A stretch of DNA of 64,000 nt from a virus. Its lineage: Duplodnaviria > Caudoviricetes. The notes below the pieces were generated by a model that was not told where the DNA came from, made no database searches, and worked only from the letters and a program-made list of their open reading frames with translations. Numbering within the stretch: position 1 is the first letter of the stretch; the number at the start of each line of letters is the position of its first letter. Made by a program: the position numbers and the translations under genes. The stretch covers positions 7,863 through 71,862 of the IMG/VR virus record IMGVR_UViG_3300035498_000698; one strand, 5' to 3'. Below, one piece after another: positions 13,726 through 52,283 of this stretch.

Positions 13726-14958
13726 TTAAAGTTTTTGTGCGAGTTCAGCAATATGACTTCGATGAATATTAACAAGAGTAACTTCACCATAAATATCATC
13801 TCCTCTAAAGATCTGAGAGACTCGTCGCATACCATTATTATCTCCAGAATAAATAGGAAGATCAACTTGGGTATCTGAATCGCCTTCAAGAATACAAATA
13901 GAGTCTTCACCAATTCTTTGAAGTGCCAATCGCATTAATTCAATATCAAGATTTTGAGCCTCGGTTATATAGACTCCAGCATTAAGACCTGTAGTATCAA
14001 AACCGCGGATATCGCTCATTGGAAGTAGTTCAATTAATCCATCTTGAATTAATTTCTCTACTGCAAATTTATCACCAATTTTACTTGATAAAAAGTTTCC
14101 TATTTGCGAATCTAAAAGTTTTTCAGTCCTAGTACCAGGATAAAAACCAAGTTTTGCTGAGTCTGCAGTTGCTACTGTATTACAAAAAATAATAATTTTA
14201 TTAATGTCGCCTTTTTCAAGTTTACTAAATAAAAATGTCATAGCTAACATAGATTTACCTGTACCTGCGGCTCCGCGAATCATAGTAATCTTATTATTTT
14301 TTAAGCTATCCATTGCCAAAGCTTGATATTCATCTTTTGGTTTTATTTTACCAAACATTTTACTTTCAAAACAATTAAAAGGAATTTTAACAAAACCGTC
14401 TTTTTTATATTTATATTTATCAATAATTTCATTCTTATTATTTTTAATAATAAGATATTCATTAGCTAAAAGATTAAATTCATTTTCACTTGACCATAAT
14501 TTTTGATATATATTGGCTAGTTCTTCATCAGAATTATAAATTACTTCTTTATAGCCTGTATAATCTTGTAAATCATCTTTTAGATATTTAACATTTAATC
14601 CTACAGCTTTTGCTAACTGTTTACAATTTAAGTCTTTTGTAGTAAAAATTATATCATAATCTTTTGAAAAATTTTTCGCAGTTAAAATAATTCTACTATC
14701 ATCTGTATCTGGTAAGACAGAATTAGTTTTTAATTCTTCATCCCATTCTTTTTGATAATTAATTATGGTATACTTATCTTCATTTTCATCAAGCAGATGA
14801 ACTAATTTTCTTGCTTTAAATTTAATATTTGCATCTTTTGAAGCTGAAGTTTTAATATTTTCTAATTCTTTTAAAGTAATATTACTAATAAAAAAATAAT
14901 CTTCAAAAGCATGACGTGATTCATTTAATAAACTGCATGTATCATAAAAAATTTGCAT
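13726..14958 (-). CDS. phoH: PIN-domain PhoH family protein (PhoH2-like)
   Basis: N-terminal FYDTCSLL PIN motif; GAAGTGKS Walker A, DIRG, ITEAQN, GDSDTQVD. Confidence 0.9.
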   Translation of the reverse strand: MQIFYDTCSLLNESRHAFEDYFFISNITLKELENIKTSASKDANIKFKARKLVHLLDENEDKYTIINYQKEWDEELKTNSVLPDTDDSRIILTAKNFSKDYDIIFTTKDLNCKQLAKAVGLNVKYLKDDLQDYTGYKEVIYNSDEELANIYQKLWSSENEFNLLANEYLIIKNNKNEIIDKYKYKKDGFVKIPFNCFESKMFGKIKPKDEYQALAMDSLKNNKITMIRGAAGTGKSMLAMTFLFSKLEKGDINKIIIFCNTVATADSAKLGFYPGTRTEKLLDSQIGNFLSSKIGDKFAVEKLIQDGLIELLPMSDIRGFDTTGLNAGVYITEAQNLDIELMRLALQRIGEDSICILEGDSDTQVDLPIYSGDNNGMRRVSQIFRGDDIYGEVTLVNIHRSHIAELAQKL

Positions 14959-14972
14959 ATTGTTCTCCTTAA

Positions 14973-15200
14973 TTAGTCCTCATCTTCATCGTCATAGTTT
15001 TCTTCAATATCTGGAGCTTGAAAACCAATAACGTTAGTATTAAGTTCTTCCTCTTCTGGAATTTCTTTTTGAATTTTTGCGGTTTGTACCGTAATTAAAG
15101 TACAAAAATATTCAATTAATTGAGAAAATAAAAATATAATACCATTTAATATTGGTAAAAATAAAGATATAAATAATACACCTTTCAAGAAATTTTTCAT
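14973..15200 (-). CDS. small membrane protein with acidic tail
   Basis: TM N-terminus, SD upstream. Confidence 0.55.
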   Translation of the reverse strand: MKNFLKGVLFISLFLPILNGIIFLFSQLIEYFCTLITVQTAKIQKEIPEEEELNTNVIGFQAPDIEENYDDEDED

Positions 15201-15350
15201 TAATAAATTCTATTCCTTTCAAGTATTTTTATTTCAATTTTATCTGAAAAATATTTTAAATAAATTAATGATTTTTGTCTCATTATAAAGATTATAACAT
15301 ATTTTTTCATAAAAAGCAAAAACCCTGCTTTAAAGCAAGGTTTAATAATT

Positions 15351-15629
15351 TTATTTATTTTTCTTGACAGCTGTATGTCTAAAGAAGCTTCCAATTACTC
15401 CAAGAGTTCCGCAAAAAAGAGGGAGAGCTTCTTTATTAAAAGATAAACCTAACATAGATAAGTCTTGAATAAAAGTATCTCCAAAAGTTATTTTAATCAG
15501 CCAGCCTGTGATCCATCCACAAATAAAACTAATAAATGGAGAAAAAATTAATACTGCAACTACCAACATAATAAGTCCAAAGCAACTAAGAGCTTCTACA
15601 GTATCATTATCATAATCATAATTTTTCAT
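15351..15629 (-). CDS. membrane protein
   Basis: Several hydrophobic segments. Confidence 0.6.
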   Translation of the reverse strand: MKNYDYDNDTVEALSCFGLIMLVVAVLIFSPFISFICGWITGWLIKITFGDTFIQDLSMLGLSFNKEALPLFCGTLGVIGSFFRHTAVKKNK

Positions 15630-16177
15630 TTATTTAATTCCTTTCTGATATCAGTTAATATATTTTCTAAAAGAATAGGATAACAATTATGAGCATCACA
15701 TTCAACATGGTAAATTAATCCTTTATTAAAATCAAGAAATTTATCTTTAGTATGAGCATGTCCACAAATATTAATAGTTCTTCTATTTAAAGGTTTATTT
15801 TCATCAAAATTTGAAGTTAAGCATGGATAATGAGTTAAGAAAAAGTTTTGTTTTTCAATATTTAAAAATTTTGCATCGCACACTTCTACAACATTATAAC
15901 AATTTTTATAAAGTTCCATTCTTTTATCTGTATCATGATTACCGCGGATAATATGAATTTTTCCTTTAAGCTGTTTAATGCATTTAATTCCTTCTTCATT
16001 ATCATTTAAAATACAATCTCCAACACAATAAACATCATCGTTTGGTTGAACTACTGAATTATAATTTTTAATAATAGTTTGATTCATTTCATATTGATTT
16101 TTAAAGCCTCTAGGTTCATAAATAAAGGGCTGTGAATGGCAAAAATGCCAATCGCTAGTAAGCCAAATATTTGACAT
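15626..16177 (-). CDS. calcineurin-like metallophosphoesterase
   Basis: SDWHF, VGD, RGNHD, THYP, GHAH motifs. Confidence 0.9.
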   Translation of the reverse strand: MSNIWLTSDWHFCHSQPFIYEPRGFKNQYEMNQTIIKNYNSVVQPNDDVYCVGDCILNDNEEGIKCIKQLKGKIHIIRGNHDTDKRMELYKNCYNVVEVCDAKFLNIEKQNFFLTHYPCLTSNFDENKPLNRRTINICGHAHTKDKFLDFNKGLIYHVECDAHNCYPILLENILTDIRKELNK

Positions 16178-16179
16178 AT

Positions 16180-16671
16180 CTATATCTCCTTTTCTATAAT
16201 TTGAATTGGTTTTTCATCTTCTACAATATAAATTTTATTAAAGCCTTCTTCAAACTCTGGCGCTTCTGTTTGAATAAACATGCGGCGAATGACCTCTTTA
16301 GGAACATAAGACCGAGTTCCGCGCCTATTTTCATTTCTTTTTAAACATTCTAATAATGGAGTTTTAATCCAAATAATTTCAATAGAATCTGGTTTTTCTT
16401 TAATATTTTTTAGTAATTTTGCTCTTGAAGCTTTATTCAAATGGGTAGCGTCCGCATATACATTAACACCAAGTTTTAGATTTTCATTAATCTGTTTAAT
16501 AAATTCTTTATACACTTCTTTTTCTTTTGAAAAATATTCTTCTCCATCTGCTACCATAGAAAAGCGTATTTTATCTCTTGAAATAATAATATCATCTTCT
16601 TTATAATGATTTTTAATCCAGGTGCTTTTTCCCGATCCTGGAGTTCCACAAAGTAAATATAAAATTGCCAT
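16180..16671 (-). CDS. polynucleotide kinase-like P-loop kinase (AAA_33)
   Basis: CGTPGSGKST, SRDKIR, DATHL, CLKRN..R motifs. Confidence 0.85.
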   Translation of the reverse strand: MAILYLLCGTPGSGKSTWIKNHYKEDDIIISRDKIRFSMVADGEEYFSKEKEVYKEFIKQINENLKLGVNVYADATHLNKASRAKLLKNIKEKPDSIEIIWIKTPLLECLKRNENRRGTRSYVPKEVIRRMFIQTEAPEFEEGFNKIYIVEDEKPIQIIEKEI

Positions 16672-16674
16672 TAT

Positions 16675-17076
16675 TTACCACCCTCTATTTAATAAATTTA
16701 AAGTTTCTTCTTTATCTTCATTTTCAATAATAATACGATGGTTGCAAGAGTAAGAATGATTTGAGTTCCAACACTTGCCATTTTTATTATATTCACAAGA
16801 TGTTTTATTACAATTCATTAATTCTGCAATAGGAATTTTATGTCCATCTACAAATCTTCCAAGACGAAACTCTTCTTCAAAATCTTCGCGGTTATAGGCG
16901 CCAAAAGGACGAACTTCCGCATGATTAGTTTCTTTTTGACAATTTAAACAAAATATTTTTTTTAAATGTCCAGGTTCTCTTTGTTGTCCTGCTCGTCTAA
17001 CAATTGGAATTCCACGTTTTCCGCACTTAGTGCAATAAAATTCACTTGTTGTAATTTCATCTTTTCTTATTTTCAT
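16675..17076 (-). CDS. Cys-rich zinc-binding hypothetical protein
   Basis: CTKC, HLKKIFCLNC and a further C-terminal Cys cluster. Confidence 0.55.
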   Translation of the reverse strand: MKIRKDEITTSEFYCTKCGKRGIPIVRRAGQQREPGHLKKIFCLNCQKETNHAEVRPFGAYNREDFEEEFRLGRFVDGHKIPIAELMNCNKTSCEYNKNGKCWNSNHSYSCNHRIIIENEDKEETLNLLNRGW

Positions 17077-17282
17077 TCATCATCAATCCTTTCTACTTTT
17101 AAAATATTTTTATAATTGTCCAAATCTTTTAATGCATCTTCAATAGACAAAAATTCACAAGGACAAATGTGCTGTTTAGTTAAATTAATATAATGATATC
17201 TATTAGTTTCTTTAATTGGCATTATTGTTACAATGCTAATTTTATTATTTTTATAAAAGATTTTAAGTTTCATATTTATCAA
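17073..17282 (-). CDS. hypothetical protein
   Basis: ORF downstream of promoter at about 17296-17324. Confidence 0.55.
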   Translation of the reverse strand: MINMKLKIFYKNNKISIVTIMPIKETNRYHYINLTKQHICPCEFLSIEDALKDLDNYKNILKVERIDDE

Positions 17283-17335
17283 CCTCTTTATATATATTAT
17301 ATCAAAAATTTAATAAAAAATAAAGTTCCGATTTT

Positions 17336-17458
17336 TTATTCAGAACTTTTATCTTTATCTTTTTTCTTTTTACGCTTTTCTTCTTCTTCTAACTCTATGC
17401 GGATACGATTTTGATTTGCCGCAACTTGAGCGGCTATAAAAGGCGCAATATTAATCAT
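17336..17458 (-). CDS. small hypothetical protein (40 aa, not in ORF track)
   Basis: MINIAPFIAAQVAANQNR...; ATGA overlap with the HPr-like gene stop. Confidence 0.4.
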   Translation of the reverse strand: MINIAPFIAAQVAANQNRIRIELEEEEKRKKKKDKDKSSE

Positions 17459-17694
17459 CATATTTTGTGCCTCCAATCTAATTGTAAAATAAATTTTTCA
17501 AAATCAGTTGCTTCTTCTGGATATTCTACAATAAATCCTTTTTTTGTATCAAAAGACATCATACCTAATAAAGATTTACCATTAATGCATTTTTCTTTTG
17601 TTTTAACTAAAATATCCCCATTAATTTTTTTAGCTAAACTAACAAAGTTTGCTAAATCTGTAATCCCATATATACTTATATATTTACTTTTCAT
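17458..17694 (-). CDS. HPr-family protein lacking the His15 motif
   Basis: FV..A.K...DI....INGKSLLGMMS matches the HPr Ser46 region; no HARP motif. Confidence 0.7.
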   Translation of the reverse strand: MKSKYISIYGITDLANFVSLAKKINGDILVKTKEKCINGKSLLGMMSFDTKKGFIVEYPEEATDFEKFILQLDWRHKI

Positions 17695-17733
17695 ATCTTT
17701 AATTATTAAAAAGAGGCTATTTAGCTTCCTTTT

Positions 17734-19002
17734 TTAGTGGTTTAATAAATATTTTCGAGAAACATTTTTAAAACTGAAAGTTGGATCAGTTGTTTTATAA
17801 TATACAAAACCTTCACGAACACAATCTTTTTGTCCTTCACATACAGAAGGATTATAGTAACCATCTGCTGACTGTTTGAACTCTTCAAAATCATTTGGAA
17901 GAATGTAATTTTCGCAAATAATAGGAACTACTTCCATATTATATTTCTTCCATACTTTTGCCGCCTCAATAATAGACATTCTTCCATTAATGCTATCAGT
18001 CCAATGAAAACAATAAAAATGAGTTTCAGACAGCTTATGAGGATTTTTTTGGATTCTTGGTGCGCAAATCTCTCCCTGCCAACATACAAAAGTAGCATCT
18101 GAATGATTTAAAAGCCAATCTTTCATTTTATTTTCAATGTCATATTTTTTAGCGACTTCCCAATAATAATTATCTGAACCAAAAAAGCATTCTTGATTTT
18201 CCTCTTTCATACGAACATTTCTGCTACATACATAAAACTCAAATTTATTTCTACTTTTTCTTTCAAGAATATAAGTTCCTGAACTACCATCACACTTTTG
18301 AGTTACAATAAATGGAGTTTTATCTTCAAGGATCCAGGCTATATTTTCGCATCTCTCCTGGTCGGTTTTACTTACACCTGGGAATTTTCCGACAGGCCAG
18401 TCCTTTCCTGTATCTTTCTTTTTATTTCCCATAAAGAGAAATAAGATTTTTTTAGCAAAGTCATGCTTCATACACCAACGACCAAATTTACTTCTAGCTA
18501 ATTTTGGATGCCTAGACATCATTGATTTATATTTAGCATTTGGATCAGTTTTAGCTTTACGCTTATTGTCCTCAACTTCTAAATAAGTTACGCCAAGAAT
18601 TTCAGTAAGTCCTTCATGTTCGATCTCTTTACCTAAATTAATTCTATATTTTAAGCTTGCTAGCCAAGAAGGAAGATCTCCATCATCATTTTTAAAATCA
18701 TCTAATGACATAAGAAGACCTTGAGAGTAGAAACCTGGATTTTTGCCTCCAAAAGTATAACGCTGAGTGCGAACTTTACCATGATATTTTTCCATAAAAG
18801 CAAATTCTGGTTTGGAAGTATCTACTTTAGAATCAATTTCAAAATAGATAGCATAATCTCCCGCCTTAAAAGTGCCTTTTCTTACCATAACTTTCCATCC
18901 ACCAATTATTGCGGCTTCGCAGTTATCAGATCCTTGAATCTGATGAATTGCGTCAATTTTTACTACATATGCAAGCTCGCGCACTCCATCTTTATTAATC
19001 AT
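17734..19002 (-). CDS. RNA ligase, DRB0094 family
   Basis: RELAYVVKIDAI N-terminal domain, KTDQER, TQKCDGSS (KxDG), QGEI, REGFV, FKNVSRKYLL. Confidence 0.85.
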   Translation of the reverse strand: MINKDGVRELAYVVKIDAIHQIQGSDNCEAAIIGGWKVMVRKGTFKAGDYAIYFEIDSKVDTSKPEFAFMEKYHGKVRTQRYTFGGKNPGFYSQGLLMSLDDFKNDDGDLPSWLASLKYRINLGKEIEHEGLTEILGVTYLEVEDNKRKAKTDPNAKYKSMMSRHPKLARSKFGRWCMKHDFAKKILFLFMGNKKKDTGKDWPVGKFPGVSKTDQERCENIAWILEDKTPFIVTQKCDGSSGTYILERKSRNKFEFYVCSRNVRMKEENQECFFGSDNYYWEVAKKYDIENKMKDWLLNHSDATFVCWQGEICAPRIQKNPHKLSETHFYCFHWTDSINGRMSIIEAAKVWKKYNMEVVPIICENYILPNDFEEFKQSADGYYNPSVCEGQKDCVREGFVYYKTTDPTFSFKNVSRKYLLNH

Positions 19003-19760: not shown

Positions 19761-19981
19761 TCAAGAAAATTCTTTATATCCTTCTAATTTTAATTCTGCT
19801 AAATCTGAAAAATCAAAAGTTCCTTCAAAATATTTTTCTTCAGCTTTTTCATCAAGATAATTCCAAAGACTATCATAATAATATTCCCAATTTATTACTC
19901 CTCCTTGACCAAGAGCAATAAATCTTTCCTTATTTCAAGCAAAATTAATAATTCTTCCTCTGAAATAATATAATTTTTCAT
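19761..19981 (-). pseudogene. frameshifted small gene (MKNYIISEEELL..LE / ERFIALGQGGVINWEYYYDSL..)
   Basis: 221 nt from ATG (coupled to the upstream TGA) to TGA, one base short of 74 codons; the two halves read as one protein after a single-base shift. Confidence 0.6.
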
Positions 19982-20787
19982 AATTTAGTAGGAACCTCAC
20001 TTTCCATAAAATCTGTTAATTCAACAGCATAATCGTTAAATAACATTAACCTGCGGCGGCCGTCTGTACGTGGATAGTTACGATATTGGTGATAATGACC
20101 CCAGCACCATGCGCGATAGTCAAGATTATATTCAATTCCGCCAAGATATCTTTCCATTGTTTTATCTACCATTGATTGATCTACAACAGATAAAAATAAA
20201 TCAGTTGGTTCAAACATAATTGGACAAGTATGTGAAAGAACTAAATCACAAGTCCAATTACTAGCTGTCAATAAAGAAAGTCCACGATTTCTCTCTCTTT
20301 CTGATAATTGTTCTTGTTCAAACCAACTAAATCCTTTTTGCAATCTATAAAATTTATCAATAGAATAAGCACCAGGAATTGTGAGGACTTTTAAAACATC
20401 TTTATTATAAGATTTATATGGAATTTCATAAAAAGTTACATAATCCATTGCATATTTAATATATGGATAGTCATTTTCTACCCAAACATATCCATTCCAA
20501 AATTTTTCTACATGCCAATTCTCTTGATGTTTTTCAGCAACAATACTAGGTCTTTCTTCATGATTTCCGCGTATAATAAAATATGTAAGTGGATATTTAC
20601 CTAATTTCTTTTTAAAATTTTCATCTCGGTGATTAAAAAAATAATTTGCGCCAAAATCTCCTAATACAATAAGTACATTTTCTGTGCTTTCTTGATCTTT
20701 ATATAAGGATGGATTCCGTTGACAAAAATTTTGAACTGGATGAAAATCTCCATGTAAGTCACCAATTAAATAAATTTTTTGTTCCAT
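19978..20787 (-). CDS. calcineurin-like metallophosphoesterase
   Basis: GDLHG, LGDFG, RGNHEER, SHTCP, GHYH. Confidence 0.9.
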   Translation of the reverse strand: MEQKIYLIGDLHGDFHPVQNFCQRNPSLYKDQESTENVLIVLGDFGANYFFNHRDENFKKKLGKYPLTYFIIRGNHEERPSIVAEKHQENWHVEKFWNGYVWVENDYPYIKYAMDYVTFYEIPYKSYNKDVLKVLTIPGAYSIDKFYRLQKGFSWFEQEQLSERERNRGLSLLTASNWTCDLVLSHTCPIMFEPTDLFLSVVDQSMVDKTMERYLGGIEYNLDYRAWCWGHYHQYRNYPRTDGRRRLMLFNDYAVELTDFMESEVPTKL

Positions 20788-33688: not shown

Positions 33689-36600
33689 ATGGGAAAATAT
33701 AACGGTAATACAGAATTAATTTCTGGATTAAAACAAAAAAATAATGGCAATTTCCCTTTAATGGAAGCTAGCGCAATTCAAGTTGATGATGAAGGAACTC
33801 GATTAGATGAAAAACTTAAAAAGTTAGAAGATACGAGCGAAATTGTGAATGACGTTTTAGCTTCTGAAACAGTTTCTAAAATCCAAGCAAATATATCATC
33901 ACTTCAAAGTGGATTAGATGCTAATACAAAAGAAATCTCAGATATTGGAACCGAAGTATCTAATTTATCTGGTAAGATAGACGATTTAGATATAAAGGGT
34001 AATGAATACGATATCTCTTATCAAGATAATATTTTAACTTTATTAGAAAATGATGAAGTAAAAACTCAAGTTACCATTGCGGGCGGCGGTGGTACAGGAG
34101 AATCTACTACTATTACTATTGATAGAATTACTCCTTCTACAGCGGTAGCATTGCTTGGTGATGATGTTATTATTAAATATAAATTTACTAGCGTAGATTC
34201 AGTAGGAGATGATACTGGAACTGCAACCGCAACATGGACGGTAGGTGGAAGAACTGTTGCAATTGAGATTATTAATCAAGGTGAAAACTCTTTTAATTTA
34301 AAAGAATATTTATCCGCTGGAAATAATGATGTAAAAATTTCTATTACCGATAGCGCAGGTAGCATCGCAACTAAAAGATGGACTATTAATGCTATTGATA
34401 TGTATATTACATCTACTTTTAATGATACCCAAGTTTATGATGGCGATGTAGTATTTAGATATTCTCCATATGGTGATATTGAAAAAACAGTTCATTTTGT
34501 TTTAGATGATGAAGAACTTCCAACTGTTATAGTCTCAACCTCTGGAAGACAGCAATCTATTACAATTTCACATAAGCCGCATGGAAGCCATTCATTAAAA
34601 GTTTATTGTACTGCATTAATTAATGATGTAACTATTACAAGTAATACATTATATTTTGACATTATGTTTATTGATGAAGGTAATTCAACACCTATTATCA
34701 GATGCGCATACGATGGCTCTAATGCTAGTCAATATACTGCAAAAGTTATAAAATATTCTGTTTATACTCCAGGAAACTTAACTTCCAATGTAAGTTTATC
34801 TATTGATGATAATATAGTTTCTTCATTAGTTGTAGATAGAACAGAGCAATCATGGAACTATAAACCAAATGATTTTGGTGAAAAAGTTTTAAAAATTACT
34901 TGCGGAAGTGTAGAAAAAGTATTAAATGTAACAGTTGATAAATTCCCTTATGAAATTAGTCAAGTTACAGATGGCTTAGAATTTGACTTTAATCCAAATG
35001 GTAGAAGTAATAGTGATGAAAACTATACTGATTATCAATATGGTGATTATAAAATGTCAGTTTCAGATAATTTTGACTGGCAGAATGGTGGATGGAAAGT
35101 AGATAGTGATGGTAATTCTTACTTTTGTGTAAAAGCTGGAACTACAATGACTTTAGATTATCCACTTTTTGGTAGTGATGCTAAAACTTCTGGTAAGGAT
35201 TTTAAATTCATTTATAAGGCTACTTTATGTAAAGACTTTAATGCAAAAGTTATGGAGTGTCTTGTAAAAAATATTGGTGTTCAGGTCAATGCGCAAAACG
35301 CTATTCTTTCTGCAGGCGGAACTACTTTAGATGTTCCATATATTGAAGATAAATATATGGAATTAGAGTTCAACATTCAGCCAAGCTCGACATATAGTGA
35401 AATGATGGCTTTAATTGATGCTGACCCTAGTAAGATTGCGGTTTATTCAGAAACAGATAACTTCGATCAGAGAAGTCTAAATAATGGTGAATTTGTTCCT
35501 ATTGTTTTTGGTTCAGATGATTGCGATGTTTGGATTTATCGTTTCAAAGCATATAATAAACACTTAAATGATGATGAAATCATGGACAATAGAATTGCAG
35601 ACGCACCAGATTCTGCGGAAATGGCTAATAGATATTTAAGAAACTTAATTGTTAATGCTCAAGGCGAAGTTGATTATGACTTAATTTCTAAAGTATGTCC
35701 AGACCTAAGAGTTATTTTGATCACCTGTCCGCGATTCACAAAAGGTAAAAAAGATAAAGTAGCTGGATGTACGGTTCAACATATTTATACAAAAGGTGGA
35801 GCTAAGCACAATTGGACTGCGGAAAATGTTACTTTATCAGGCCAGGGAACTTCATCTGATAACTATGGCGATTCTTCAAGAAATATGGATATTGATTGTA
35901 CTAAAACAGTATTTAAATTCTCAGATAATACAGAGTCTTCTGTTTATAGCATGACTGATAATAGTATTGGAGAAGCTTATTTTAATATTAAAGTGAATGT
36001 AGCTTCATCTGAAAACGCTAATAACTCGAGATTCCAAGATGATTATCATACATATCAGCCATATTTAAGAGAGGCTCGACAGAAAGACTCAAGAGTAAGA
36101 GACACAATGGAATTTCATCCATGCGTTATCTTTGTTCAAGAAACGGATACTGGCGAAGCTACTCAGTTCTCAGATGGAAAGATGCATTTCTACTCTTGCG
36201 GAGATTTTGGTAACTCAAAGAAAAATCATACTGCTTTAGGAATGGAAACTGACAATCCATTAGAATGTATTGTTGAAATTGATAATAATACAGATGTAAT
36301 ATGTAGATTTAAATCTGATGACCTAAGTGAAGAAACTTGGGATGGTAAACACGCTATTGAATTTAGATATCCAAGTATTGATTCTTTAGAAGAAAGCGTT
36401 GTAAATATTCTAAAAGCAAATGTTCAAAGATTATGGACTTGGGTTGTTTCTACAGATGCGGACGCCGCAACTAATAGAGCATTAAATGAAACAGAATTAA
36501 AAGATGTTGCTAAATGGGGCAAGACCTACACAACGGATTCTGCTGAATATAGATTAGATAAATTCAAATATCAATTTGAAGATTATTTTATAAAAGATTC

Positions 36601-40129: not shown

Positions 40130-41620
40130 TTATTTTACAGCTGCATATCTCTCTGATGTAATAGCTTCAAGGCAAAGATCCCATCCAGTTTTACCAGTGA
40201 GAATCTGTTTAAAGATACTAGGAGATGCGCCGCTTACAAATGAAACATTTGGACCAGCATCAAGGATAGTGTCTTTAGAAGCATTAACATTCCAATAAAC
40301 TAACTTAGGCATTTTTAATCCACAAGCTTCCCATTCTTTTCTAATCCATTCCATTTCAGTACACGTCCTGCTAGAGTCCCAATAACCATATGACATACTA
40401 TCAATCTGCATATCAGAAATAATAACAACAGTCTCTAATCTGTCTTCTGGTTTTGTTTTTAAACTAACATTTTTTAAAAGATCAAAAGTAGCTTTAATAT
40501 TGGTGTTTTCACATAAATTAGTCTTATAAATTCTACGAACTTTATCTACAAAGTCTACTCCCTGAATATGAATTAACTGCGGTTTTGAAGAGAAACTAAT
40601 ATAGTGATCTTTAAAAGGTCCACCAACTCGTTCTGCACAATACATTCCAAGACCAATAGCCATATTAATTGGAGCAGATGCCGAAGTCCCAGTCATACTT
40701 CCCGATGTGTCTACAACGCACATCATTTTGCAAGGTTTTCCTTCAAGATAATCTTCAAGTCCATTCCAATATTTTTCAAGCATTGCTCTGTCTATATCAG
40801 AAAGGTAATTAAAACGATAACTCCATTTATCTCCGCGTTCAGTAGCTTTATAGACTACTTCATAAGGATAAAGAGTTTTAGCGTTAACTGTAATATTTTC
40901 ATCTTTTGCAAAAGTTTCATATTTTTTAGCAATAATATCTCTACGAGCAAAAGCGTTCTTATAGATTAATCCAGCCTTTGATGGAATCTTATCAAATTCA
41001 ATTTCATCCCATCTATTTGCAGACATAAGTCTTTCAAGTACATTAATTCTCTTACGCAGTTCAGAAAGAACTTTTCTATACTGTCTGTGCGTAAAGCCAA
41101 GATATGATCTTACAATATTTGCTAATCTTTTAGTCTCTGCGGAAGATGCATTCTCAGATGGAAGCCATTTTGCAAGCAGAGATGGAGTTTTGCACTGAAC
41201 ATCAAGAGCTAATTGTTCCTTAATAAAGCCAAGGGCATGTTTTTCTAGCGGAGTGCCAATACAAGAGTAAAGTACATCGTCCCATCTACGATAAGTAGGA
41301 ATGTTCTCTAAGTTGCGGGCTGCCGCCTCAGGATGCTTATTAGCCAGCCATTTGAAACATGTACGAAAGAATCTACGCTCTCCCTGACCGCCGCGACAAT
41401 CTGCAATATAAAATAAACATTTAAGCGCTAAGGTCTCATCCTCTTCAAATGCATTTTTAAAAAGTAGAATACAATCTTCATCACTTCTTTTGCGATAACT
41501 AGCGCCCAATGCAAAAAGATCATATACCGCAGAATTGGTAGTTTTATGAGCCAGCGCGCCATTTTCAGTATAAGTAAAGTTAGTTGCGTTTTTAAGATTT
41601 GTCATAAATGAGTTTTCCAT
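40130..41620 (-). CDS. DUF2828-family protein (helical N-domain + vWA; Ro60/TROVE-like architecture inferred)
   Basis: TENGALAHKTT, DCRGGQGERRFFR, RRWDD, LAKWLPSE; MIDAS residues DTSGS, NTN, ISDMQ; LVYWNV. Confidence 0.8.
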   Translation of the reverse strand: MENSFMTNLKNATNFTYTENGALAHKTTNSAVYDLFALGASYRKRSDEDCILLFKNAFEEDETLALKCLFYIADCRGGQGERRFFRTCFKWLANKHPEAAARNLENIPTYRRWDDVLYSCIGTPLEKHALGFIKEQLALDVQCKTPSLLAKWLPSENASSAETKRLANIVRSYLGFTHRQYRKVLSELRKRINVLERLMSANRWDEIEFDKIPSKAGLIYKNAFARRDIIAKKYETFAKDENITVNAKTLYPYEVVYKATERGDKWSYRFNYLSDIDRAMLEKYWNGLEDYLEGKPCKMMCVVDTSGSMTGTSASAPINMAIGLGMYCAERVGGPFKDHYISFSSKPQLIHIQGVDFVDKVRRIYKTNLCENTNIKATFDLLKNVSLKTKPEDRLETVVIISDMQIDSMSYGYWDSSRTCTEMEWIRKEWEACGLKMPKLVYWNVNASKDTILDAGPNVSFVSGASPSIFKQILTGKTGWDLCLEAITSERYAAVK

Positions 41621-44534: not shown

Positions 44535-44642
44535 AAGACGCCTTGTTTCTTTTGCTCTACCAATTGAGCTATTTTCAATTTTATAATAACTTGAAAAACA
44601 GGAATCGAACCCGCAACTTTCTATTTTTGCAGTGTGCGTCTT
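44535..44642 (-). ncRNA. ACWGCAA-family RNA 5: circularly permuted tRNA mimic (YrlA-like Y RNA)
   Basis: AAGACGC/GCGUCUU stem, ACACUGCAA, then T arm, closed 7-bp acceptor stem, UA, D arm in that order. Confidence 0.75.
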
Positions 44643-48067: not shown

Positions 48068-48132
48068 ACGCTTCTGTGAGAATCGAACTCACATCTCCTG
48101 CGCAGCCGCTTTGCCAATTAAGCTAAGAAGCA
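48068..48132 (-). tRNA. 65-nt tRNA with anticodon arm reduced to CUG-CG-CAG
   Basis: Perfect acceptor, D and T arms; no anticodon loop. Confidence 0.75.
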
Positions 48133-51286: not shown

Positions 51287-51868
51287 TTAAACATCTCCCT
51301 TCCATTGATGGCGGCTTTTGCTTTGAGACTTCCAGTTTCTTTCTCTACAACGAGTCCAATCATCCCACCAGCCATCTGGCACATCTTTTACACTACCTCG
51401 ATTAAATTCCTTATATTCTGGATTTGCATACATAGCTTTTAAATGCTTAATACGACGAGGACGAACAGATGGACCGCCGCGTCTACCACCAGTATAAGGA
51501 ACAGGAGTTTCTCTAAAAGTGCCTTTATAAGTTTTATTTTTGTGCCAATAAAAATAATTATTTTTGTCCTTATCCGCCACATTACGCAAATATTTACAAA
51601 AATAATTCCAAGCATCATTTTTATATGCGGTTGCAGTTATATTTCTGCCATACCCATCAAAAAAATGCTCTGAAAAACGAGGATTTGAATACTTATCATC
51701 ATACCCTCTTTCATAAAAATGGTCAATTATACCTAAATAACGATAACCATTTGCAAGATATTTAATTAAATCCTGCTCGCTCCCAATACGAGTAATTCTA
51801 TAAGTCTGATGAATACGACCTACATAATGCTCTACAAAAATATCACTTTTATTTTCAATTTGATACAT
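51287..51868 (-). CDS. hypothetical basic protein
   Basis: 193-aa ORF ending WDD..R..ERNWKSQSK.RHQWK. Confidence 0.6.
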   Translation of the reverse strand: MYQIENKSDIFVEHYVGRIHQTYRITRIGSEQDLIKYLANGYRYLGIIDHFYERGYDDKYSNPRFSEHFFDGYGRNITATAYKNDAWNYFCKYLRNVADKDKNNYFYWHKNKTYKGTFRETPVPYTGGRRGGPSVRPRRIKHLKAMYANPEYKEFNRGSVKDVPDGWWDDWTRCRERNWKSQSKSRHQWKGDV

Positions 51869-51964: not shown

Positions 51965-52089
51965 TGACGAGAGTAGGACTCGAACCTACATGGCACTAAG
52001 CCGCCGGATTTTAAGTCCGTGAGTGCCGCTATGGTTTATATCTAAACCCAGATGGTTCCGGTGCGTCTCTCCAATTCCGCCATCTCGTC
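51965..52089 (-). tRNA. tRNA-Leu(UAA) with a 41-nt insertion in the 5' strand of the anticodon stem
   Basis: Removing 52016-52056 restores an 84-nt cloverleaf CCGGA-CUUAAAA-UCCGG. Confidence 0.75.
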
Positions 52090-52091
52090 AA

Positions 52092-52208
52092 AAAGAAGGG
52101 TGGGGCTCGAACCCACGACAATCAGCTTGCCCAAAAAAGATTGCAGTTACAGGTTATTTCTAATCTAATTTTAATTGGCTGATGCTCTCCCAGCTGAGCT
52201 ACCTTCTT
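52092..52208 (-). ncRNA. tRNA scaffold whose anticodon loop is replaced by a 51-nt insert containing UAACUGCAA
   Basis: AAGAAGG/CCUUCUU acceptor, canonical D and T arms, UCAGC/GCUGA stem closing 52127-52177. Confidence 0.75.
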
Positions 52209-52210
52209 AG

Positions 52211-52283
52211 TACGGGCGCAAGGAATCGAACCTCGAATCGCTGGATATAAGCCAGGTGCAACGCACCACATCACCTCGCCCGC
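52211..52283 (-). tRNA. tRNA-Ile(UAU)
   Basis: CUGG-CUUAUAU-CCAG; cloverleaf, A73. Confidence 0.8.

What the first reader, a model, noticed from the sequence alone, without database searches (positions are those of the whole stretch)
52092..52208. Unpermuted tRNA body with the anticodon loop replaced by a 51-nt ACUGCAA domain
Acceptor, D and T arms and the 5-bp anticodon stem are canonical, but the loop is CAAUUAAAAUUAGAUUAGAAAUAACCUGUAACUGCAAUCUUUUUUGGGCAA, which contains the family motif next to an AGAUU/AAUCU helix. It is the topological counterpart of the permuted 44535-44642 RNA: the same modules with the ends at the acceptor stem, so it could receive CCA. It may be an evolutionary intermediate between tRNA and Y RNA. 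The alternative is a short tRNA intron.
Basis: partly seen in the sequence, partly recalled or inferred. Interest (0 to 1): 0.8.

Follow-up and report, generated by a model that had tools for sequence, protein, structure and literature searches.

The report
tRNA-shaped RNA carrying Ro60-like handle
A gut phage encodes an RNA folded like a complete tRNA whose anticodon loop is replaced by a conserved 51-base domain, and that domain carries the same short motif as the small RNAs that accompany the phage's Ro60-like protein, so it is most likely a non-decoding partner RNA and not a tRNA with an intron.

Summary
On the minus strand, 52208-52092 is a canonical tRNA cloverleaf (Rfam tRNA 48.4 bits) with a 51-nt anticodon "loop" containing ACUGCAA.

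Six diverged orthologues from other phage contigs keep the whole design. Compensatory changes occur in the acceptor, anticodon and T stems and in a hairpin inside the insert (15 covarying pairs; 0 of 500 shuffles reach this).

The motif (ACUGCAA, ACAGCAA or ACGGCAU) and a GNNA-capped hairpin just before it are conserved. No excision gives a shared 7-nt loop with U33 and one anticodon, so a simple intron is unlikely for this gene.

The conserved helix is the local hairpin.

The phage's DUF2828 protein models as Ro60. Stem+ACAGCAA RNAs are strongly enriched beside DUF2828 genes (186 versus 7 by strand in 80 loci). The same module sits in other tRNA bodies nearby.

Best reading (about 0.5): an unpermuted, tRNA-shaped, Y-RNA-like partner of the Ro60-like protein. 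Binding and expression are untested.

This scan has already reported the same design on other DNA, in at least 20 genomes. I found no published description.

The parts
52092..52208 (-). Whole tRNA-shaped RNA (117 nt), 5' end at 52208
   Evidence: Rfam RF00005 48.4 bits, model positions 1-71; orthologue alignment A2
52202..52208 (-). Acceptor stem 5' strand AAGAAGG; it pairs with 52099-52093 CCUUCUU, and the discriminator U is at 52092
   Evidence: 6 of 7 pairs change on both sides across orthologues
52184..52199 (-). D arm GCUC-AGCUGGGA-GAGC
   Evidence: Nearly invariant in 7 orthologues
52178..52182 (-). Anticodon-stem 5' strand UCAGC; it pairs with 52126-52122 GCUGA
   Evidence: The orthologues have CCUGG/CCAGG or CCGGG/CCUGG; 3 of 5 pairs are compensatory
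52127..52177 (-). 51-nt domain in place of the 7-nt anticodon loop
   Evidence: conserved plan in the orthologues
52150..52167 (-). Hairpin P2 with a GAAA cap: U-AGAUU-A / GAAA / U-AACCU-G, with one A.C mismatch in this copy
   Evidence: Alignment columns 43-49 pair with 54-60; 4 covarying pairs and 95.9% of cells paired
52141..52147 (-). Motif ACUGCAA, predicted single-stranded, 3 nt after P2
   Evidence: the orthologues have ACUGCAA, ACAGCAA or ACGGCAU at the same place
52127..52140 (-). U-run plus GGGCAA linker back to the anticodon stem. The orthologues have a U/C-rich stretch followed by AAGGGA. It could pair weakly with the purine-rich 5' linker (52177-52168).
   Evidence: the duplex is weak and not better than shuffles
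52100..52116 (-). T arm GUGGG-UUCGAGC-CCCAC
52210..52283 (-). tRNA-Ile(UAU), which abuts the 5' end of the RNA with a 1-nt spacer
   Evidence: it heads the same cluster in the related loci
51965..52089 (-). Leu-type (type II) tRNA with a 41-nt module holding the hairpin GGUUU-AGAUAU-AAACC and AGCGGCA; the CUUAAAA loop is intact. It abuts the 3' end of the RNA.
   Evidence: in relatives the same position carries ACUGCAA or ACAGCAA (L032, L050)
44535..44642 (-). Permuted tRNA-like handle RNA: closing stem, ACUGCAA, T arm, capped acceptor, D arm, closing stem
   Evidence: Sequence; recovered as an open handle
40130..41620 (-). DUF2828/DUF7788 protein with a Ro60-like fold; proposed partner
   Evidence: Pfam. 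AF2 model with pLDDT 69; the 13 best Foldseek PDB hits are all Ro60/TROVE
15626..19002 (-). RNA repair genes: metallophosphoesterase 15626-16177, P-loop kinase 16180-16671, RNA ligase 17734-19002

Best explanation
This is a stable, non-decoding, tRNA-shaped RNA. It is transcribed with its two abutting tRNA neighbours. Because its acceptor, D and T arms are intact, RNase P and the 3'-trimming and CCA-adding enzymes probably release it like a tRNA.

In place of the anticodon loop it displays a folded module: a 7-bp hairpin capped by a GNNA tetraloop, then 3 nt, then single-stranded ACUGCAA. This module is the internal, capped form of the 'closing stem + ACWGCAA' handle found on the free-standing small RNAs beside the phage's Ro60-like (DUF2828) gene.

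The module most likely docks that ring protein. The tRNA body would then recruit, or compete for, a tRNA-recognising factor, as YrlA-type Y RNAs are thought to do for Ro60.

Shown here: the structure, its conservation, the shared motif and its context, the Ro60-like fold of the protein, and the enrichment of handles beside DUF2828 genes.

Inferred: expression, end processing, binding to DUF2828, and the downstream role.
For: 1. The cloverleaf plus the P2 hairpin are supported by 15 compensatory pairs; 0 of 500 shuffles reach this.
2. Inside the insert, the hairpin cap (UAG..AUA) and A-AC.GCA are conserved as strongly as the D and T arms in 7 orthologues, while the linkers vary.
3. No shared U33 or anticodon can be regenerated. 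ARAGORN calls Ala, Phe, Leu, Pro and SeC for the orthologues.
4. Six free-standing RNAs in the window have a 7-9-bp closing stem, 0-2 nt, then ACAGCAA or ACUGCAA.
5. In 80 loci around DUF2828 genes, stem+ACAGCAA occurs 186 times on the gene strand and 7 times on the other. The density of AC[AU]GCAA handles is 16.7 per 100 kb, against 2.2 in 90 kb of unrelated phage DNA.
6. Of 57 distinct tRNA inserts in these phages, 18 carry ACNGCAH, against 3% of control windows. In L050 the type I and type II RNAs carry near-identical modules.
7. The DUF2828 model's 13 best PDB matches are all Ro60/TROVE, aligned over the full length.
8. All four relatives that carry embedded-handle RNAs, and whose record returned a DUF2828 match, encode the protein: G001, G004, G006 and G008.
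9. There is a precedent. M. smegmatis YrlA is cut by RNase P and receives CCA in vivo (PMC4201824, read).
Against: - No expression, processing or binding data exist.
- In the free-standing handles the stem is formed by the RNA's own 5' and 3' ends, followed by a 3' UG. If the protein needs those free ends, a capped internal hairpin may not bind.
- The window copy is the most divergent orthologue. It has an A.C mismatch in P2, and its linkers have lost the AKAAAG and AAGGGA blocks shared by the others.
- ACUGCAA is the minor variant among open handles: 26 on the gene strand against 9 on the other.
- A generic scan for 'hairpin then motif' is barely enriched by strand, 182 against 143. The case therefore rests on the tRNA context.
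- Several sister RNAs with the same module keep a perfect anticodon loop (Leu UAA, Tyr GUA, Pro UGG). That leaves room for an intron-like role of the module.
- G005 has DUF2828 but no embedded-handle tRNA at this site.
Confidence: 0.5

Rival explanations
1. The module is a new kind of protein-dependent tRNA intervening sequence. A nuclease would recognise the hairpin+ACNGCAA signal, possibly with the Ro60-like protein, and cut it out. The phage's kinase, phosphoesterase and RNA ligase would then heal and seal the ends. This gene would be a copy whose joined product has a non-standard loop, or whose halves are the products.
For: - Sister RNAs with the same module regain a perfect 7-nt anticodon loop on clean excision: Leu(UAA) in the window, L002, L032, L047 and L107; Tyr(GUA) in L125; Pro(UGG) in L085.
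- The CUUAAAA loop is conserved across diverged phages.
- The phage encodes an RNA ligase, a P-loop kinase, a metallophosphoesterase and a PIN-PhoH protein.
- Lak megaphage tRNAs were reported to carry conserved, unexplained introns (PMC6784885).
Against: - For this gene, no excision gives U33 or a common anticodon in six diverged orthologues.
- The same motif occurs on free-standing RNAs that interrupt nothing.
- No tRNA-intron endonuclease and no RtcB were found in 5 related records.
- No allele without the insert was found in IMG/VR.
- The neighbouring Leu-type RNA flips its anticodon between UAA and GAA in near-identical contigs (L029 and L030), which argues against a decoding constraint.
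Confidence: 0.18
2. It is a tRNA decoy or mimic that works without the Ro60-like protein. For example, it could soak up a host tRNA-targeting defence nuclease or another tRNA-binding factor, with the insert only blocking decoding and stabilising the RNA.
For: - The tRNA elbow and acceptor are intact while the anticodon is missing.
- Other anticodon-less tRNA look-alikes exist in these phages: window 48068-48132 and L139, which has a GAAA-capped anticodon arm.
- The phage carries a large tRNA set and RNA repair genes, which suggests conflict over tRNAs.
Against: A plain decoy does not need a conserved 50-nt module. The module's motif and context match the handle that is enriched beside DUF2828 genes.
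Confidence: 0.15
3. It is a cis-acting element of the polycistronic transcript. It would act as a processing or regulatory leader for the conserved 193-aa gene that always follows these handle-bearing tRNA look-alikes.
For: Handle-bearing tRNA-like genes sit directly upstream of the 193-aa ORF family in the window, in 7 of 9 IMG/VR loci and in about 24 of 32 metagenome loci.
Against: The tRNA-like ends and the 1-2-nt spacers predict release by RNase P. In other phages the same module occurs in tRNA arrays with no such ORF nearby. The ORF's function is unknown.
Confidence: 0.07
4. It is a decaying tRNA pseudogene, derived from a tRNA-Asn-like or tRNA-Ala-like gene, that was hit by an insertion.
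For: - The window copy is the most divergent orthologue and has a mismatch in P2.
- The closest intact tRNA is tRNA-Asn(GUU) of sister phages, with an identical T arm.
- The first 7 nt of the loop, CAAUUAA, resemble CUGUUAA.
Against: Compensatory changes in four stems, and an invariant motif, persist across phages whose neighbouring protein is only 39-67% identical.
Confidence: 0.04

Closest known systems
YrlA-type Y RNAs with Ro60/Rsr in bacteria and mycobacteriophages (Rfam RF02553; Chen et al. 2014, PMC4201824)
   Same: A small RNA that combines a tRNA-like D arm, T arm and acceptor module with a protein-docking stem plus a short conserved motif. It is encoded near a ring-shaped Ro60-fold protein. 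M. smegmatis YrlA is even cut by RNase P and receives CCA.
   Different: - The protein is DUF2828/DUF7788, not Pfam TROVE. It has no sequence match to any PDB Ro60 and resembles Ro60 in fold only.
- The motif is ACWGCAA, not GNCGAAN0-1G.
- The RNA ends lie at the acceptor stem, a real 5-bp anticodon stem is kept, and the docking helix is an internal capped hairpin.
- There is no RF02553 match.
Free-standing 'closing stem + ACAGCAA' handle RNAs beside DUF2828 genes
   Same: The same motif, with a helix ending 0-3 nt before it, on the same strand and in the same genomes as the DUF2828 gene.
   Different: In those RNAs the RNA's own ends form the helix and the cargo lies inside it. In this RNA the helix is capped by a tetraloop and the cargo, a whole tRNA body, lies outside it. 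The two are circular permutations of each other.
'Enigmatic' tRNA introns of Lak megaphages (Devoto et al. 2019, PMC6784885)
   Same: Short, conserved inserts in the anticodon region of phage tRNA genes. They are found only when tRNA finders are run in intron mode, and no self-splicing class fits them.
   Different: The Lak inserts were defined by the tRNA they restore. In this gene no canonical anticodon loop is restored, and the insert carries a motif shared with RNAs that are not introns.
Thermus phage phiLo Ro60 with its Yrl1 and Yrl2 RNAs (PMC12135203)
   Same: A phage-encoded Ro60-fold protein with phage-encoded partner RNAs next to the gene. PDB 9kop and 9l5y are among the best structural matches of the DUF2828 model.
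   Different: The phiLo RNAs are classical stem-bulge-stem Y RNAs with a CGAA motif and are not tRNA-embedded. Their binding was shown experimentally, whereas binding is only inferred for this RNA.

Membership tests
tRNA (Rfam RF00005) | Cloverleaf with acceptor, D, anticodon and T stems and the conserved elbow nucleotides | tested here: met
   48.4 bits against a cut-off of 29, model positions 1-71; covariation in the stems
tRNA (Rfam RF00005) | 7-nt anticodon loop with U33 and an anticodon conserved among orthologues, either directly or after removal of an insert | tested here: not met
   The loop is 51 nt. Every 7-nt reconstruction in the window has A or G at position 33. ARAGORN calls Ala, Phe, Leu, Pro and SeC for the orthologues.
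tRNA (Rfam RF00005) | Aminoacylation and use in decoding | not testable with these tools
   There is no G3:U70. It has a type I body, and the discriminator is U or A.
YrlA Y RNA (Rfam RF02553) | Match to the covariance model | tested here: not met
   Only tRNA matches were returned, both at gathering score and at E<=1.
YrlA Y RNA (Rfam RF02553) | Ro60-binding stem formed by the 5' and 3' ends, with the GNCGAAN0-1G motif | tested here: not met
   The ends form the acceptor stem and the sequence contains no CGAA. The motif definition comes from PMC4201824.
YrlA Y RNA (Rfam RF02553) | tRNA-like D, T and acceptor module | tested here: met
YrlA Y RNA (Rfam RF02553) | Encoded near a Ro60 (TROVE + vWA) protein | tested here: inconclusive
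   The DUF2828 gene lies 10.5 kb downstream on the same strand. It has a Ro60-like fold (Foldseek E 1.6e-6 to 1.7e-3, TM about 0.5) but no TROVE Pfam hit and no PDB sequence hit.
Stem+ACWGCAA handle RNAs linked to DUF2828 | AC[A/U]GCAA lying 0-3 nt 3' of a helix strand | tested here: met
   ACUGCAA lies 3 nt after P2. The orthologues keep both elements.
Stem+ACWGCAA handle RNAs linked to DUF2828 | The helix is the closing stem formed by the RNA's termini | tested here: not met
   The helix is a capped local hairpin, and no open stem was found at 52147.
Stem+ACWGCAA handle RNAs linked to DUF2828 | The same genome encodes DUF2828 | tested here: met
   Window 40130-41620; relatives G001, G004, G006, G007 and G008
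Stem+ACWGCAA handle RNAs linked to DUF2828 | Physical binding to the DUF2828 protein | not testable with these tools
   No RNA-protein docking or experiment was available.
Self-splicing group I/II introns in tRNA | Catalytic core (over 200 nt) with a match to the Rfam intron models | tested here: not met
   The insert is 44-51 nt and no intron family matched at E<=1.
Archaeal/eukaryal bulge-helix-bulge tRNA introns | A 3-4-3 bulge-helix-bulge at the junctions and an EndA-type endonuclease | tested here: not met
   The consensus structure has no such motif. PF01974 is absent from 5 related records, 3 of them at least 90% complete.
Lak-type phage tRNA introns | Excision restores a canonical tRNA | tested here: not met

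The most novel reading that the evidence does not exclude
The hairpin+ACNGCAA module is the recognition signal of an undescribed protein-dependent tRNA maturation or splicing pathway in phages. The Ro60-like ring would hold module-bearing pre-tRNAs, including the Leu, Tyr and Pro genes with intact anticodon loops. The phage kinase, phosphoesterase and ligase would finish the job. Anticodon-less copies such as this RNA would act as regulators or competitors of that pathway.
Probability: 0.12. Interest if true: 0.9.

Novelty: new variant of a known kind. Interest (0 to 1): 0.6.

Why it matters
Ro60/Y-RNA particles are conserved from bacteria to humans, yet what their tRNA-like modules do is still unclear. 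This phage lineage appears to have rebuilt the arrangement with a different protein family and a different docking motif. It uses several RNA topologies side by side: free hairpins, permuted tRNA mimics, and whole tRNA bodies with the handle in the anticodon arm.

An RNA with true tRNA ends and an internal handle is an easy object for experiments, including CCA tailing, pull-downs and structure work. It could show which tRNA-recognising factor the particle engages. It also cautions that 'tRNA introns' reported by gene finders in phage genomes may be docking modules and not introns.

Tried and rejected
- Nucleotide search of 2.5 kb around the site against GenBank phages found no match.
- An exact scan of IMG/VR with the 5' half found nothing. 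A two-half pattern found only the two closest relatives.
- A scan for an allele without the insert returned only unrelated tRNAs with the same D and T arms, none with this acceptor stem.
- Metagenome records could not be searched for DUF2828, so co-occurrence could not be checked for L027-L058.
- The single-sequence fold of the window RNA is not more stable than its shuffles (z = -0.22). The structural support comes from covariation only.
- Pairing between the purine-rich 5' linker and the U-rich 3' linker (P1) is weak (0.4 to -3.9 kcal/mol) and no better than shuffles.
- A small helix that RNAalifold proposes after the motif (columns 70-73 with 83-86) consists mostly of G.U pairs, so I did not adopt it.
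- A generic 'hairpin then motif' scan was too noisy to use.
- RtcB and tRNA-intron endonuclease searches were negative.
- The DUF2828 protein has no meaningful sequence match in the PDB (best E 0.33, all to unrelated proteins).
- The 193-aa neighbour has no Pfam hit and only a weak PHROG hit. Its AF2 model was too poor to search (pLDDT 46.7). The protein atlas gave only a sub-threshold NUMOD3 lead (0.77).
- A literature search for DUF2828 found only unrelated plant and animal papers.

Full report
**Observation**

The feature is on the minus strand, 52208 to 52092, 117 nt. Rfam's tRNA model matches it end to end at 48.4 bits (cut-off 29), with a 50-nt insertion where the anticodon loop should be. 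Default ARAGORN does not report it. In intron mode ARAGORN calls it 'tRNA-Ala(GGC) with a 44-nt intron', with A at position 33.

Reading the sequence gives:
- acceptor AAGAAGG/CCUUCUU
- D arm GCUC-AGCUGGGA-GAGC
- anticodon stem UCAGC/GCUGA
- variable loop UUGUC
- T arm GUGGG-UUCGAGC-CCCAC
- discriminator U, no encoded CCA

ACUGCAA lies at 52147-52141. The RNA is the middle member of three abutting genes. tRNA-Ile(UAU) at 52283-52210 lies upstream. A Leu-type tRNA with a 41-nt insert (52089-51965) lies downstream. A conserved 193-aa ORF follows.

The host record is a 71.9-kb IMG/VR phage fragment, about 47% complete, with about 30% G+C and more than 18 tRNA genes.

**Orthologues and structure**

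The 193-aa ORF family led to 9 IMG/VR loci and 32 metagenome loci. The same tRNA-shaped RNA is present in L002, L003, L027, L029, L030, L032, L049 and L050. Across these the neighbouring protein is 39-67% identical.

In the 7-sequence alignment A2, the cloverleaf plus one hairpin inside the insert gives 99% paired cells. Fifteen pairs have changes on both sides. None of 500 shuffles reach this, and slid controls give 40-51% paired. The window's anticodon stem UCAGC/GCUGA corresponds to CCUGG/CCAGG elsewhere.

The insert has one shared plan:
1. A purine-rich linker (AKAAAG...).
2. A 7-bp hairpin (GGAUU/AAUCC, GAUUU/AAAUC, GGGAU/AUUCC, GGGGU/AUCCC) capped by GAAA, GUAA or GAUA.
3. Three nucleotides (RAA or GUA).
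4. The motif: ACUGCAA in five sequences, ACAGCAA in L050, ACGGCAU in L049.
5. A U/C-rich stretch.
6. AAGGGA (GGGCAA in the window).

The motif and the hairpin cap are invariant or nearly so, while the linkers vary.

It does not exceed shuffles (70 of 500), and it is mutually exclusive with the covarying hairpin. I treat it as a possible alternative conformer only. The window copy is the most divergent orthologue and has an A.C mismatch in the hairpin.

**Intron or permanent domain?**

For a decoding tRNA with an insert, orthologues should regenerate the same 7-nt loop with U33. They do not. All reconstructions in the window have A or G at position 33. Across orthologues ARAGORN proposes Ala, Phe, Leu, Pro and SeC.

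No insert-free allele with this acceptor stem turned up in IMG/VR. The insert is far too short for self-splicing classes, and no Rfam intron or ribozyme family matches at E<=1. No bulge-helix-bulge appears in the consensus structure. Neither a tRNA-intron endonuclease nor RtcB is encoded in five related records, three of them at least 90% complete.

A simple intron is therefore unlikely for this gene.

**Link to the handle family and the Ro60-like protein**

The window holds six free-standing RNAs of 68-160 nt. Each has a 7-9-bp stem formed by its own ends, followed after 0-2 nt by ACAGCAA or ACUGCAA. They lie just upstream of a DUF2828/DUF7788 gene.

I modelled that protein (pLDDT 69). Its 13 best PDB matches are all Ro60/TROVE proteins aligned over the full length, including D. 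radiodurans Rsr, Xenopus and human Ro60, and Thermus phage phiLo Ro60. It has no detectable sequence match to any of them.

In 80 IMG/VR loci centred on DUF2828 homologues, I counted a strand of at least 7 nt with an exact complement 25-240 nt downstream, followed within 3 nt by ACNGCAN. This occurs 268 times on the gene strand and 74 times on the other. For ACAGCAA alone the counts are 186 and 7. The density of AC[AU]GCAA handles is 16.7 per 100 kb, against 2.2 in a small control of unrelated phage DNA.

Locally, the target's module has the same geometry as these handles. A helix strand runs 3' into the single-stranded motif. The far end of the helix is closed by a tetraloop instead of being the RNA's termini.

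Starting from the motif, the order of modules in the permuted RNA at 44535-44642 is: linker, T arm, capped acceptor, D arm, purine-rich linker (AAAAGAAACAAG), then the stem. In the target orthologues the order is the same. The differences are the extra anticodon stem and the break at the acceptor; the purine-rich linker there is AUAAAGAAAAU.

**The module is portable**

Across all fetched loci, ARAGORN in intron mode gives 57 distinct inserts. Eighteen contain ACNGCAH, against 3% of control windows. Thirty-two contain the core CNGCA, against 12% of controls.

The module sits in other tRNA bodies too. Leu-type RNAs next to the target carry it:
- L032 has ACUGCAA.
- L050 has GGUUU-AGAUAU-AAACC-AUU-ACAGCAA, almost the same as its type I neighbour.
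- L004-L008 have ACYGCAA.
- The window copy has the same hairpin but AGCGGCA.

It also occurs in Tyr, Pro and unassignable bodies beside DUF2828 genes. L098 even encodes a 3' CCA.

Some carriers keep a perfect anticodon loop (CUUAAAA, CUGUAAA). This keeps an intron-like or regulated-maturation role open for the module in general. However, the Leu-type neighbour flips between UAA and GAA in near-identical contigs (L029 and L030), which argues against decoding constraint.

**Mechanism proposed**

The RNA is most likely released from the tRNA transcript by RNase P and 3' trimming and given CCA. It then serves as a tRNA-shaped partner of the Ro60-like protein. The module docks the ring, and the tRNA body engages a tRNA-recognising factor.

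The phage also encodes an RNA ligase, a P-loop kinase, a metallophosphoesterase and a PIN-PhoH protein. That fits a role in tRNA surveillance or repair during infection. This last step is inference by analogy with Ro60/YrlA (PMC4201824) and with the RNA repair discussion for jumbo phages (PMC7824862).

I put this reading at about 0.5. The rivals are:
- a protein-dependent intervening sequence, 0.18
- a DUF2828-independent decoy, 0.15
- a cis element for the 193-aa gene, 0.07
- a pseudogene, 0.04

**Comparison with what is known**

It works like a YrlA-type Y RNA but is not a member of that family. There is no RF02553 match and no GNCGAA motif. The ends are at the acceptor stem and not at the protein-binding stem. 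The partner protein belongs to a different sequence family.

M. smegmatis YrlA, which RNase P cuts and which receives CCA, is the nearest published precedent for a Y RNA with tRNA ends.

Lak megaphage 'enigmatic introns' (PMC6784885) share the symptom, an insert in the anticodon region of a phage tRNA. They were defined by the tRNA they restore.

I found no paper linking DUF2828 to RNAs.

**Status within this scan**

Earlier notes of this scan describe the same design in at least 20 other genomes. I reached the reading from my own calls before seeing the notes from other genomes. They are not independent evidence.

This instance adds three things:
- a covariation-tested orthologue set
- the observation that type I and Leu-type neighbours carry the same module

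Noticed in passing
L029:1284-1409 versus L030:1284-1409; also L027:1254-1377 and L108:9182-9308: The Leu-type (long variable arm) RNA next to the target flips its anticodon between UAA and GAA in near-identical contigs. A Leu-type body with a Phe anticodon recurs in a distant phage. This is odd for a decoding tRNA.
   Followed up: partly
window 13726-19002 (-): An RNA healing-and-sealing gene set: PIN-PhoH (13726-14958), metallophosphoesterase (15626-16177), AAA_33 kinase (16180-16671) and an RNA ligase with an N-terminal OB domain (17734-19002). A second metallophosphoesterase lies at 19978-20787.
   Followed up: partly
window 51287-51868 (-) and its homologues (alignment A1): A 193-aa protein of unknown function sits directly downstream of the handle-bearing tRNA look-alikes in most related loci. 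It has a basic, Trp-rich C-terminus. The AF2 model is poor and the only lead is a sub-threshold NUMOD3 match.
   Followed up: partly
L016:121-258 (-) (G004 35143-35280) and L004:6809-6957: tRNA-Asn(GUU) and tRNA-Asp(GUC) genes carry 65- and 77-nt inserts inside the anticodon. These belong to a different sequence class: the Asn insert is closed by CGGAAG...CUUCCG, and neither has an ACNGCAA motif. Clean excision restores a canonical anticodon loop for Asn; the junction is less clear for Asp.
   Followed up: no
L098:4097-4216 and L079:2191-2309: tRNA-like RNAs have the middle replaced by hairpin-AUGU-CUGCAA. The L098 copy encodes a 3' CCA.
   Followed up: no
L139:3913-3965 (-): An unrelated phage encodes a tRNA look-alike whose anticodon arm is a 5-bp stem closed by a GAAA tetraloop. 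It is another anticodon-less tRNA, like window 48068-48132.
   Followed up: no
window 52210-52283 (-) and the related loci: tRNA-Ile with a UAU anticodon, unusual for bacteria, heads this cluster in nearly all relatives. The L009 and L010 clade has Ile(GAU) there and no handle-bearing RNA.
   Followed up: no
L111:7272-7423 and L116:14044-14193: A third class of 75-77-nt tRNA inserts shares GGGG(C/U)..UGUAAAGAACA. They occur in Leu(CAA) and Gln(CUG) genes beside DUF2828 loci.
   Followed up: no
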